NCBI RefSeq assembly: GCF_024502345.1
Contig: NZ_JALDNN010000001.1
Length of the DNA: 64,000 nt
Strand: one strand, 5' to 3'
From: Escherichia coli
Lineage (GTDB): Bacteria > Pseudomonadota > Gammaproteobacteria > Enterobacterales > Enterobacteriaceae
Position numbers: made by a program. How positions within the stretch are numbered: the first letter of the stretch is position 1; each line of letters starts with the position of its first letter. This document shows, piece after piece, positions 18,201 through 21,200 of this stretch.

Positions 18201-21200
18201 GTCTATCAATCTGCATTCTCACCGAACTTACTCGAACGCCCGCGTCTGGAAAGCCATCTACAAAAACTCCTGACCGATGCCGTGAAAATGCGTGGGCTGA
18301 TTGCGCCCGCCAGCAAAGAAACCCGTATTCCAAAATCGATATATGAAGGTATCCAGACCATTAATCGCAATCTGGTTTGTATGCTGGAGTTGCAAATCAA
18401 TGCATACTGGGCCACGCGCCCCAGCCATTTCGTGTTATTGAACGCGCAAAAACTTCGTGATACCCAGCATATGATGCAGCAAATACTGCTGAGCCTTGTT
18501 CATGCGCTGTACGAAGGTAATCCGCAGCCGGTTTTTGCCAATACGGAAAAATTGAACGATGCTGTGGAAGAGCTGCGTCAGTTGCTGAATAACCACCATG
18601 ACCTGAAGGTTGTGGAAACACCAATCTATGGTTATGTGTGGCTGAACATGGAAACGGCACATCAGCTTGAGTTGCTATCGAATCTGATTTGCCGGGCCTT
18701 GCGCAAATAATTCCTGAACTTCAGAATCATCTTGCTGCTGCTTCGATTCAGCAAGGATAAAGGGTATGATAGTGAAAAGGGATAAAAGCATTGTCATCTG
18801 CGGCAGCTATGAGTAATGTTGGCCCTAACGAATAGCGGTTGCTTAAACGAATCCGACTCTCACATTATCAGGGGTATAAAAATGGAAACTACCAAGCCTT
18901 CATTCCAGGACGTACTGGAATTTGTTCGTCTGTTCCGTCGTAAGAACAAACTGCAACGTGAAATTCAGGACGTTGAGAAAAAGATCCGTGACAACCAGAA
19001 GCGCGTCCTGTTGCTGGACAACCTGAGCGATTACATCAAGCCAGGGATGAGCGTTGAAGCAATCCAGGGCATCATCGCCAGCATGAAAGGTGACTATGAA
19101 GATCGCGTTGACGATTACATCATCAAAAATGCCGAGCTCTCCAAAGAACGCCGCGATATCTCCAAAAAGCTGAAAGCTATGGGCGAAATGAAAAACGGCG
19201 AAGCGAAGTAATTCCCGTTTTATTCAATGAGGGTTGCCCGGCAACCCTCATTGCTCATTGATTCTTATTTGTGTATCACCGTCATCATTCTCATCTGAGA
19301 ACCAATCGAAATTAACAACAGCCTTCTTCTGTATGCAGCAAGGCAAAAAGTTCTGTAACTCCATTGTTATTAACTGCACTGGTTACTAACACGTTGTGCG
19401 CTCCAGCTTCCCGTAACCAACTTTTCACCAAAGATATTTGTTCCATGCTGGCTAAATCTGCTTTGGTTACTACTCCAATGACCGGGTGATTCATGGCCCG
19501 GTAGGGCGTTTTTACCTCTAATTCCTGCTTCAGCGCTGAGATTCCTGCTTGTTGCCGGAAAAGCAGGCACCTGCCGTCTGAACGGTATCGATCCGGAAGC
19601 GTATCTGCGCCATATTCTGAGCATACTGCCGGAATGGCCCTCCAACCGTGTTGACGAACTCCTGCCATGGAACGTAGTTCTCACCAATAAATAAGCGTCA
19701 ATACGGTGCTCCGTTGACGCTTACTTTAATCCGTTTTCTGAGCTTAGATTTTTCTGTTCCTACCCAGACCGTGGATTTGGAATTCATTTTTTGTCAGGTC
19801 AATGCTAATCGTTAAAACGGCCATAACGCACCTCCACTGGAAGGTTTATCAGTAATATCCTACCGTTGCTTCATGGTCGGGGCGTCCATTCCATTATTAT
19901 CGGTTTTCCTTTCTGTTTATAAATGAAAACGCCAGCTGTATTCAGGCTGGCGTCAGGGGAAATGAAGCCTGTTGAGTGAGATTCACCGGTTCTGGTGCAG
20001 AAGCTGCAGATGGCGCAGGGTAAGGACATCTTCTCTTGCCTGCTTAATACAGGACAACAGTGCTGTTTCTGTGGTTAATGGCACTATACCCTGCATCACT
20101 GCATTGTCTTACAGCAACTGGTGAGGGCTGGCATAAGTTGCCGGTGTTTCGGTAGAGTCACGGTCATCCACCACGCGGAGTGAATAACCGTTTTCAGCGG
20201 CCTTATTAATCAGTTCAGTGATATTAACACCATCAATGTCAACGACAATGTGCCCCATATCCAGCGCCTGTACGTTAACGCTGTCGGCTTCCAGTGTCAT
20301 CATTTCGCCTCCGGATACTTACCCAGGGTAATGTTATTTACCGTTCTGTAATTGTCGCGGGTCATCAGGCCGGTCGCCCTGCGAGCCCGGAGGATACCCG
20401 CTTACGCGAGAGCAATAAGTGGCTGGCCACCATTCTCGATACAAAACTCTGCTGAATAGCAGCGATTTTCCCAGCGTGGTGCGTCTTTTGCATTTTACTG
20501 GTTCTGAGTTATCAATTATCTGTTCACTAATGACTACTCTAAAAAGTTGTATCAATTTAAGTGATATAGGGAGTCTGGAGATTCACCCTTTTTGGTGATG
20601 AAGTTAACAATACCGCCAATTGCCTGTGAACCGTACAGTACGGAATATGGACCTTTCACTACCTCAACACGCTCCAGCGCAGACTCATCTATCAACAGTC
20701 CCACACCATAATTATCTCCGGCGCGCTGATAAGTTACCTCCTGACCATCAATGAGAATTAAAACACGGGAGGATGCTTCGCCACGAATGCGGATTTGTTT
20801 ACGGCCTGCCAAGGAGTTGTCTGTTATCTCTACTCCGGGGATGTCCTGCAAATTATCGGCTATGGAGGCATTGGTGGAGTTCTGCAATGTTTGTTGGTCA
20901 ATAACCTGTATAGTCGCCGGGCTTTCCCAAAGGTTGCTTGCCGAACGATTCGTGGTCACGACGAGCGTCTCTTCGTTGCTGATTTTTGTTTCTGAAGAAG
21001 TTGCGGTTGCAGTAGAAACTATCCCAGAAATGCATAATGACAGAGTGGAAAGGATATAAATTCGACAAGGTATATTATATAACATTTCATCCCTCATTAA
21101 TACAAAGTACAAATGATTGCTGTAATGATAATTATTTTCATTTATGTTCTCATATATCTATAATTATTGTCATCTTCATAAATTGTAAATATCAAACATT

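What the first reader, a model, noticed from the sequence alone, without database searches (positions are those of the whole stretch)
21121..21139. Fur-box-like site retained upstream of a truncated TonB-dependent receptor gene
The 5' fragment of the receptor gene (signal peptide, TonB box, plug domain) is preceded by tgtAATGATAATtATTtTC, 36-54 bp upstream of the candidate start. This resembles the Fur consensus at 15 of 19 positions by eye. An iron-regulated promoter may still drive transcription of a non-functional fragment and act as a Fur titration site.
Basis: partly seen in the sequence, partly recalled or inferred. Interest (0 to 1): 0.3.

Follow-up and report, generated by a model that had tools for sequence, protein, structure and literature searches.

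The report
Known Fur operator of yoeA pseudogene
This is the already published binding site for the iron repressor Fur in front of yoeA, the broken 5' remnant of the haem-receptor gene hma in K-12-like E. coli; it is real and strong, but ordinary and already documented.

Summary
Window 21121-21139 (TGTAATGATAATTATTTTC) matches the Fur consensus at 15/19 and is the single best match in the 64-kb window. It contains a near-perfect 7-1-7 core (21126-21140). A PWM I built from 15 validated K-12 Fur sites, without this one, scores it 20.2 bits: rank 1 of 63,982 positions, AT-matched null P = 2.5e-4. Overlapping and distal sites make a 57-bp cluster over the promoter.

The window is K-12-like E. coli. 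The gene is yoeA (b4582): codons 1-167 of the 715-aa haem receptor Hma of UPEC, 100% identical over that stretch and cut at nt 500 by a decayed IS2-like element.

The site is already in the literature. It is the joint-strongest predicted Fur cluster in K-12 (27.4 bits, gel-shift positive; Chen 2007). Fur ChIP-exo peaks, iron-replete only, occur there in MG1655, W3110 and CFT073. The truncated W3110 fragment rises about 32-fold in a fur deletion (Gao 2023).

The 'Fur titration' idea is negligible on stoichiometry.

Verdict: already known, low interest.

The parts
21121..21139 (.).
   Evidence: 15/19 to the consensus and the unique best match in the window. 20.2 bits with the independent PWM, rank 1 of 63,982. 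The 19-mer is identical in K-12, W3110 and in a strain with the intact gene.
21126..21140 (.). 7-1-7 inverted-repeat core TGATAAT-t-ATTTTCA, centred at 21133, which is -48 from the ATG
   Evidence: 13/14 specified positions, the only such hit in the window. The centre maps to Chen et al.'s strongest site (U00096.2 2066611, position -48, 27.4 bits), using the +1976 coordinate shift derived. CFT073 has A>T at -52, which makes this core a perfect match.
21127..21145 (.). Second Fur site, overlapping the first with a 6-bp offset
   Evidence: 16.7 bits, the second-best hit in the whole window. A 6-bp offset is the spacing typical of multi-dimer Fur operators (Chen 2007).
21153..21177 (.). Distal pair of weaker Fur sites (21153-21171 and 21159-21177), also 6 bp apart
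   Evidence: 10.4 and 11.2 bits. ChIP-exo peaks in MG1655 (P66) and W3110 (P82) map to window 21134-21155 and 21141-21153, between the two site pairs. CFT073 has three substitutions here and loses these weaker sites.
21125..21160 (-). Candidate sigma-70 promoter(s) of yoeA/hma. Either -35 ATGAGA (21153-21148) with -10 TATCAT (21130-21125), or -35 TAGATA (21160-21155) with -10 AATAAT (21136-21131)
   Evidence: Consensus scan, 9/12 each. Shultzaberger 2007 places a -10 element 48 bases upstream of the start, overlapped by the Fur sites. No transcription start site was mapped here.
21090..21095 (-). Shine-Dalgarno-like GAGGGA, ending 4 nt before the ATG
   Evidence: Read from the sequence.
20552..21085 (-). 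Truncated yoeA ORF of 177 codons plus stop: signal peptide, TonB-box-like ETLVVTT, plug domain, then 10 unrelated codons (ESPDSLYHLN)
   Evidence: ORF list. Pfam Plug E = 3e-25. NCBIfam hits cover N-terminal regions only. Translation shown.
20586..21085 (-). Stretch homologous to nt 1-500 of the intact hma gene
   Evidence: blastn 99.8% over nt 1-500 and nothing beyond. Residues 1-167 are 100% identical to CFT073 C_RS11765.
20400..20585 (.). Decayed terminal part of an IS2-like (IS3-family) element that abuts the gene at nt 500; this is the cause of the truncation
   Evidence: 71-89% identity to the last ~230 bp of K-12 IS2F, ending at the element's terminal repeat exactly at the breakpoint. 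PGAP annotates 'transposase' here in other genomes.
21197..21220 (.). Published FNR-site candidate (AAAACATGATTAAGGTCAAAAATG on the gene strand), about 120 bp upstream of the ATG
   Evidence: FNR ChIP-chip target 'yeeH/yoeA' with this predicted site (Grainger 2007). The sequence is located in the window. It fits the O2-dependent yoeA levels seen in Fur- strains.

Best explanation
The site is the core of the Fur operator of the yoeA/hma promoter.

When iron is plentiful, Fe2+-Fur dimers bind the near-perfect 7-1-7 repeat centred 48 bp upstream of the ATG. They spread over overlapping sites 6 bp apart and over a weaker pair about 30 bp further upstream. This covers the -10 and -35 elements of the sigma-70 promoter and blocks RNA polymerase. 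When iron is scarce, Fur leaves and the promoter fires.

In strains with the intact gene this produces Hma, a TonB-dependent outer-membrane haem receptor of uropathogenic E. coli. In this K-12-like strain an IS2-like element cut the gene after codon 167. The same intact promoter therefore now makes an iron-regulated transcript for a 177-residue signal peptide, TonB box and plug fragment. That fragment has no beta-barrel and cannot transport anything.

Shown: the sequence match, the operator architecture, the truncation and its cause, and identity with the experimentally tested K-12 promoter. Taken from the literature on identical or near-identical DNA: Fur binding in vitro and in vivo, and Fur-dependent expression. 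Inferred: the exact promoter elements, and that this strain behaves like K-12.
For: Sequence. 15/19 to the consensus, unique in the window, with a 13/14 7-1-7 core. The independent PWM gives 20.2 bits, rank 1, AT-matched P = 2.5e-4, plus sites at 16.7, 11.2 and 10.4 bits at 6-bp offsets. Promoter-like hexamers lie under the sites.

Identity with the studied locus. The window is 99.6-100% identical to MG1655 here. Over the 260 bp upstream, K-12 and W3110 differ from the window only at -34, outside the box.

Literature.
- yoeA is the joint top Fur cluster in K-12: 27.4 bits, 12 walkers over 95 bp, gel-shift positive, at position -48.
- The Fur sites overlap a sigma-70 promoter.
- Iron-replete-only ChIP-exo peaks occur in MG1655 (P66, also reported by Seo et al.), W3110 (P82) and CFT073 (P85, upstream of C_RS11765).
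- Delta-fur log2FC is +5.0 for the W3110 5' fragment, +1.5 for CFT073 and +1.2 for Sakai.
- yoeA is in the Fur-2 iModulon and is listed as a known Fur target.
- It is induced together with iron-uptake genes in O157:H7.

Gene identity.
- An intact 715-aa gene sits at the same place next to cobU.
- The CFT073 protein is 79.2 kDa with Tyr at residue 126, and residues 1-167 are identical to the window.
- Its best NCBIfam model is the TonB haem/haemoglobin receptor subfamily.
- hma = c2482, a haem receptor.

Truncation. An IS2-like end sits at the breakpoint.
Against: Nothing was measured in the strain this window comes from.
- The gel-shift oligo sequence could not be read because the supplement is not held. 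Identity of the tested DNA with the window therefore rests on coordinate mapping.
- No transcription start site was mapped, and the promoter hexamers are only 9/12 matches.
- The 32-fold fur effect comes from W3110, whose fragment is additionally cut by IS2 at nt 306. The window's allele has no IS2 and has C rather than T at -34.
- Equating CFT073 C_RS11765 with c2482/hma rests on gene order, protein size and Tyr-126, the last two recalled from a paper that is not held.
- Fold changes for the intact genes in CFT073 and Sakai are modest (log2 1.2-1.5).
Confidence: 0.93

Rival explanations
1. Chance resemblance. The promoter region is 77% A+T, and the Fur-like string is a by-product of base composition with no Fur binding.
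For: The local region is very AT-rich. The PWM also gives 15.7 bits to a plain A/T run at 30537-30555, so AT-richness alone can produce sizeable scores.
Against: AT-matched random sequence reaches 20.2 bits in only 0.025% of trials. Four sites fall in the 6-bp register typical of Fur operators. The same DNA is bound by Fur in vitro and in vivo.
Confidence: 0.01
2. The Fur cluster also, or mainly, controls a divergent plus-strand promoter (TTTTCA-18-TATAAT, 21135-21164). That promoter reads toward the yoeH/yoeG remnants and possibly on to cobUST, which would tie cobalamin salvage to iron status in strains without the IS5 insertion.
For: The plus-strand promoter match (10/12, perfect -10) is the best in the region, and both hexamers lie under Fur sites. 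MG1655 has a second ChIP-exo peak assigned to yoeH (P65, window ~21269-21297). The window lacks the IS5 that separates this region from cobU in K-12.
Against: cobU, cobS and cobT do not respond to fur deletion in MG1655 or W3110 (log2FC -0.2 to +0.4, not significant), although both strains carry the IS5. About 1.6 kb of pseudogene debris and a very stable hairpin lie between. No transcript evidence was found.
Confidence: 0.08
3. The site matters as a Fur sink. By holding several Fur dimers it lowers free Fur and tunes the rest of the Fur regulon.
For: It is the joint strongest and one of the largest predicted Fur clusters in K-12 (12 walkers, 95 bp), and it is occupied in vivo under iron-replete conditions.
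Against: There is one copy per chromosome binding at most a handful of dimers, against several thousand Fur molecules per cell. That abundance is from my own knowledge of Zheng et al. 1999 and was not checked here. Classical Fur titration assays need multicopy plasmids. About 60% of complete E. coli genomes lack the promoter entirely. I tested no consequence of that absence here.
Confidence: 0.03

Closest known systems
yoeA (b4582) Fur-binding cluster of E. coli K-12 MG1655/W3110 (Chen et al. 2007 NAR; Shultzaberger et al. 2007; Seo et al. 2014 and Gao et al. 2023 ChIP-exo)
   Same: It is the same locus. The 19-bp box, the 7-1-7 core and the distal sites are identical. The only difference in the 260 bp upstream is C/T at -34. 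Position -48 and the ChIP-exo peaks map onto the window's sites.
   Different: The window's yoeA is not interrupted by IS2. It encodes 177 residues, whereas in K-12 IS2 interrupts the gene at nt 306. It also lacks the nearby IS5 and most of CP4-44, from yeeP to part of cbtA.
hma (c2482) promoter of uropathogenic E. coli CFT073; Hma is a TonB-dependent haem receptor
   Same: Orthologous promoter and gene at the same chromosomal position next to cobU. Residues 1-167 are 100% identical. An iron-replete Fur ChIP-exo peak lies 58-70 bp upstream of the start, and the gene is derepressed in a fur deletion.
   Different: CFT073 has the full 715-aa gene. Its Fur core is a perfect 7-1-7 (A>T at -52; 21.3 and 19.0 bits), but three substitutions remove the weaker distal pair.
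Classical Fur operators of iron-uptake promoters (fepA-fes, fhuA, cirA, fecI, entC, iucA)
   Same: A 19-bp palindromic box, overlapping sites at 6-bp offsets, occlusion of the -10/-35 elements, and binding only when iron is replete. The score lies at the top of the range of these sites.
   Different: The regulated product here is a dead fragment rather than a working transporter.

Membership tests
Fur operator (member of the E. coli Fur regulon) | Match to the 19-bp Fur box / 7-1-7 inverted repeat above the range of validated sites | tested here: met
   15/19 to the consensus; 13/14 to the 7-1-7 motif; 20.2 bits with a PWM built without this site, against a leave-one-out range of 7.9-21.4 for 15 validated sites.
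Fur operator (member of the E. coli Fur regulon) | Overlapping sites in 6-bp register forming a multi-dimer cluster | tested here: met
   Site centres at -45/-51 and at -77/-83. Chen 2007 reports 12 walkers over 95 bp.
Fur operator (member of the E. coli Fur regulon) | Overlap with the promoter's -10/-35 elements (repression by occlusion) | tested here: inconclusive
   Promoter-like hexamers (9/12) lie under the sites, and a published model puts the -10 at -48. No experimental transcription start site was available.
Fur operator (member of the E. coli Fur regulon) | Fur binds the DNA in vitro and in vivo, dependent on iron | not testable with these tools
   Published for K-12, where the box is identical: gel shift with 150 nM Fur, and ChIP-exo peaks under iron-replete conditions only in MG1655, W3110 and CFT073.
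Fur operator (member of the E. coli Fur regulon) | Transcript level depends on Fur or iron | not testable with these tools
   Published: W3110 5' fragment log2FC +5.0 in a fur deletion; Fur-2 iModulon member; listed as a Fur target. Not measured for this strain.
TonB-dependent outer-membrane receptor (functional transporter) | N-terminal signal peptide, TonB box and plug domain | tested here: met
   Pfam Plug E = 3e-25. The signal-peptide-like N-terminus and ETLVVTT are read by eye from the translation.
TonB-dependent outer-membrane receptor (functional transporter) | C-terminal 22-strand beta-barrel | tested here: not met
   Only nt 1-500 of 2148 are present. No further homology is found anywhere in the window by blastn or tblastn. 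NCBIfam matches stop at about residue 170.
Hma (haem receptor of UPEC, c2482), as its 5' remnant | Orthology: same chromosomal position and near-identical sequence to the CFT073 gene | tested here: met
   CFT073 C_RS11765 lies near cobU, just past the pks island. Residues 1-167 are 100% identical, with one synonymous difference in 500 nt. The protein is 79.2 kDa with Tyr-126, as I recall for Hma. The equation C_RS11765 = c2482 is inferred from gene order.

The most novel reading that the evidence does not exclude
The fragment may not be inert. Under iron starvation the strongly derepressed promoter would make a 177-residue exported protein carrying a TonB box and a plug domain. In the periplasm this could compete with full-length receptors for TonB. 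That would dampen TonB-dependent uptake, or colicin and phage entry, and could explain why roughly 750 complete genomes keep a promoter-proximal fragment. No evidence gathered here supports this; it is only not excluded.
Probability: 0.04. Interest if true: 0.45.

Novelty: already known. Interest (0 to 1): 0.08.

Why it matters
It matters little beyond correct annotation.

- The site is a textbook-type Fur operator that was predicted, gel-shifted, ChIP-mapped and shown to be Fur-responsive in K-12 years ago.
- One useful bookkeeping point: the K-12 pseudogene yoeA is the 5' remnant of the UPEC haem-receptor and vaccine-candidate gene hma. No paper in the searchable library mentions both names.
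- The joint-strongest predicted Fur cluster of K-12 therefore sits in front of a dead gene. It is a clean natural example of a regulatory element outliving its gene.
- For regulon and iModulon work, it is a reminder that pseudogene fragments can be among the most responsive 'members' of a regulon.

Tried and rejected
- The built-in pattern search allows at most 3 mismatches and so cannot see a 4-mismatch site. I replaced it with a full scan in Python.
- I tried to read Chen et al.'s supplement for the exact yoeA oligo, and Beauchene et al.'s expression tables. Neither is held.
- I tried to read the original Hma paper (Hagan and Mobley 2009) by PubMed id and by a guessed PMC id. It is not held. 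The Hma properties (79 kDa, Tyr-126) are therefore from memory and were only checked for consistency.
- A search for a paper linking 'hma' and 'yoeA' found none.
- I considered promoter decay in pseudogene lineages as a test for selection and rejected it as uninformative. The promoter is identical in a strain with the intact gene, and divergence across E. coli is only 0-4 differences in 260 bp.
- I considered Fur control of cobUST through the divergent promoter. Published fur-deletion data show no effect, but only in strains carrying IS5.
- I looked for a terminator after the truncated ORF and found only a chance-level candidate.
- The question was settled by the E. coli collection and the literature.
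Full report
**1. The observation**

Window 21121-21139 (+) is TGTAATGATAATTATTTTC. It matches the classical Fur consensus GATAATGATAATCATTATC at 15 of 19 positions, with mismatches at positions 1, 2, 13 and 17.

A scan of every 19-mer on both strands shows it is the only 15-match site in 64 kb. The three 14-match sites all lie at the same locus. The tool's search with up to 3 mismatches finds nothing, as expected.

The site contains TGATAAT-t-ATTTTCA at 21126-21140. This matches 13 of the 14 specified positions of the 7-1-7 Fur motif and is again unique in the window.

**2. An independent PWM test**

I fetched eleven K-12 regions holding 15 footprinted or gel-shifted Fur sites listed by Chen et al.: fepA-fes, fepD-entS, fepB, entC, fur, gpmA, tonB, cirA, exbB, ryhB, sodA, fecA, fecI, fhuF and fhuA. 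From these I built a symmetrised 19-bp matrix that does not include this locus.

| Site (window) | Score (bits) | Centre relative to ATG |
|---|---|---|
| 21121-21139 | 20.2 | -45 |
| 21127-21145 | 16.7 | -51 |
| 21153-21171 | 10.4 | -77 |
| 21159-21177 | 11.2 | -83 |

- The box at 21121-21139 is rank 1 of 63,982 positions in the window.
- The training sites score 7.9-21.4 bits when left out (mean 15.7), and only gpmA and fhuF score higher than this site.
- Random 155-bp sequences with the local 77% A+T composition reach 20.2 bits in 0.025% of trials.
- The site at 21127-21145 is second-best in the whole window.
- The four sites form two pairs, each offset by 6 bp, which is the architecture of multi-dimer Fur operators.

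Promoter-like hexamers for the minus strand lie under the sites. One candidate is -35 ATGAGA with -10 TATCAT; the other is -35 TAGATA with -10 AATAAT. A GAGGGA ribosome-binding site precedes the ATG.

**3. Where this is**

The window is E. coli, and its plus strand corresponds to the K-12 minus strand. The region is 99.6-100% identical to MG1655 between tmaR/yeeX and cobU.

Relative to MG1655, the window differs in three ways:
- it lacks IS2F inside yoeA, showing the empty site at 20780-20784;
- it lacks IS5H, showing the empty site at 22363-22366;
- it lacks the 7.2 kb from downstream of yoeA to the middle of cbtA, which holds yeeP, isrC, flu, yeeR, yeeS, yeeT and cbeA.

No complete genome in the collection has that last junction as one contiguous piece.

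**4. What the gene was**

Many strains carry an intact 2148-bp, 715-aa gene at this position next to cobU (L002; CFT073).
- The window's residues 1-167 are 100% identical to the CFT073 protein, with one synonymous change in 500 nt.
- The CFT073 protein is 79.2 kDa with Tyr at position 126.
- Its best NCBIfam model is the TonB haem/haemoglobin receptor subfamily, below that model's cut-off.
- It lies near cobU just beyond the pks island, which fits locus tag c2482.
- c2482 is hma, a haem receptor and UPEC vaccine antigen.

The 79-kDa size and the Tyr-126 dependence of Hma are from my memory of Hagan and Mobley 2009, which is not held. The equation C_RS11765 = c2482 is an inference from gene order.

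Homology to the intact gene stops at window 20586 (nt 500), and nothing more of the gene is in the window. The next 186 bp (20400-20585) are a decayed end of an IS2-like element, 71-89% identical to IS2. Its terminal repeat abuts the breakpoint. The truncation is therefore an old IS insertion followed by loss of the distal part.

The open frame runs 10 more codons to a stop at 20552-20554. It gives a 177-residue signal peptide, TonB box and plug product with no barrel.

**5. What is already published about this DNA**

- *Prediction and binding in vitro.* Chen et al. 2007 list yoeA first in their table of strong Fur clusters in K-12, tied with gpmA: 27.4 bits, 12 overlapping sites over 95 bp, at position -48. 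Their oligo was shifted by 150 nM Fur. With the local shift of +1976 between U00096.2 and U00096.3, their coordinate 2066611 falls on window 21133. That is the centre of the 7-1-7 core.
- *Promoter overlap.* Shultzaberger et al. 2007 show the same Fur sites overlapping a sigma-70 promoter whose -10 lies 48 bases upstream of the start.
- *Binding in vivo.* The ChIP-exo tables of Gao et al. 2023 list peaks bound only under iron-replete conditions:

| Strain | Peak | Position in window or relative to ATG | Source |
|---|---|---|---|
| MG1655 | P66 (also in Seo et al.) | window 21134-21155 | |
| W3110 | P82 | window 21141-21153 | |
| CFT073 | P85 | 58-70 bp upstream of the intact gene | |

- *Expression.* In their pan-regulon, the ortholog cluster has these fur-deletion log2 fold changes: +5.0 in W3110, +1.5 in CFT073 and +1.2 in Sakai. 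I confirmed that the W3110 locus tag Y75_RS23850 is the 306-nt 5' yoeA fragment.
- *Other mentions.* yoeA is a Fur-2 iModulon member and is listed among known Fur targets. It rises with other iron-uptake genes in O157:H7.

Over the 260 bp upstream of the ATG, MG1655 and W3110 differ from the window only at -34, outside the box. A strain with the intact gene is identical to the window.

**6. Mechanism**

This is classical repression by promoter occlusion. Holo-Fur dimers bind the -48 core, extend over the overlapping and distal sites, and cover the promoter. Iron limitation releases them.

In this strain the output is a transcript for a non-functional fragment. Because IS2 is absent here, the transcript should cover the whole 534-nt ORF. 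In W3110 the piece beyond IS2 does not respond to Fur. Whether transcription continues into the cbtA remnant and yeeW downstream is open, since only a chance-level terminator candidate was found.

**7. Population view**

- The 181-bp promoter is present in 2186 of 5426 complete E. coli genomes.
- Gene sequence is present in 2113 genomes, and 1361 of them cover at least 80% of its length.
- About 750 therefore keep only a 5' piece, commonly nt 1-500 or 1-306.
- Strains lacking everything lose homology at about window 21298, inside a perfect hairpin, with an IS3-family element alongside.
- Divergence in the promoter is 0-4 differences per 260 bp. 'Retention' of the box in pseudogene lineages therefore says nothing about selection.

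**8. Rivals**

- *Chance AT-rich resemblance* is excluded by the AT-matched null and by the published binding data.
- *Physiological Fur titration* is implausible for a single-copy cluster, given thousands of Fur molecules per cell. That figure is my own knowledge and was not checked here. About 60% of genomes lack the promoter, but I did not test what that absence does.
- *A divergent plus-strand promoter* (TTTTCA-18-TATAAT, 21135-21164) under the same sites is a real possibility. It has no transcript support, and cobUST do not respond to fur deletion in K-12, where IS5 intervenes.
- *A function for the exported TonB-box and plug fragment* is not excluded and is unsupported.

**9. Verdict**

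The feature is already known in detail. Its interest is low.

The only small additions here are:
- the explicit link between yoeA and hma, which no paper in the searchable library states;
- the IS2-like cause of the truncation;
- the description of this strain's IS-free allele.

Noticed in passing
window 21291-21331: A perfect hairpin with a 19-bp stem (TCCACGGACCGCACTCTTG-aca-CAAGAGTGCGGTCCGTGGA as folded). RNA MFE is -43.7 kcal/mol and z = -8.2, with no T-run on either side. Strains that lack hma/yoeA lose homology at about 21298, inside this hairpin, with an IS3-family transposase next to it. It may be an insertion or recombination hotspot marking the island boundary.
   Followed up: partly
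window ~21269-21297: A second MG1655 Fur ChIP-exo peak maps here, next to the hairpin: P65, assigned to yoeH, iron-replete, not in Seo et al.. My PWM listed no site above 3 bits in the 21086-21240 stretch other than the cluster, and I did not score this peak region itself. It may be a shoulder of the main peak or an unrecognised weak site.
   Followed up: no
window 21197-21220: A published FNR ChIP-chip target ('yeeH/yoeA') with predicted site AAAACATGATTAAGGTCAAAAATG lies about 120 bp upstream of the yoeA ATG. This fits the O2-dependent yoeA levels seen in Fur- strains. Its distance to the candidate promoters does not fit a standard class I or class II position by my reckoning.
   Followed up: partly
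window 21135-21164 (+): The best sigma-70 match in the region is on the plus strand: TTTTCA-18-TATAAT, 10/12. It is divergent from yoeA, and both hexamers lie under Fur sites. It points at the yoeH/yoeG remnants and, 1.6 kb on, at cobUST. The window has no IS5 in between.
   Followed up: partly
window 20395/20396: A junction between a 3' fragment of cbtA and the IS2-like remnant. It corresponds to a 7.2-kb deletion of yeeP, isrC, flu (Ag43), yeeR, yeeS, yeeT, cbeA and part of cbtA relative to MG1655. None of 5426 complete genomes shows this junction as one piece.
   Followed up: partly
window 20780-20784 and 22363-22366: These are the empty target sites of the K-12 insertions IS2F (in yoeA) and IS5H. 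The strain is otherwise 99.6-100% identical to MG1655 here, so it represents the pre-insertion state of this locus.
   Followed up: yes
window ~22265-22605: Remnants of an IS4-family transposase (~22265-22453) and of the 3' end of a 'cobalamin biosynthesis protein' gene (~22462-22605) lie directly upstream of cobU. The positions are mapped from PGAP annotation of L002. The second remnant may be a relic of the cbi/cob operon that E. coli lost; that interpretation is from my own knowledge.
   Followed up: no
window 30537-30555 and 49079-49097: These are the next-best PWM hits outside the locus. The first is AAAAATAAAAATTATTTTT (15.7 bits), an A/T run just after a tRNA-Asn gene. The second is GATAATAATCTTTAATTTC (12.2 bits), inside an ORF at 48720-49391. 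Both are probably composition effects.
   Followed up: no
literature: No paper in the searchable library contains both 'hma' and 'yoeA'. One proteomics paper reports 'YoeA' in vesicles of UPEC 536 via the K-12 UniProt entry. I suspect this was really Hma, but I did not check whether strain 536 carries the intact gene. The two names appear not to be linked in print.
   Followed up: partly
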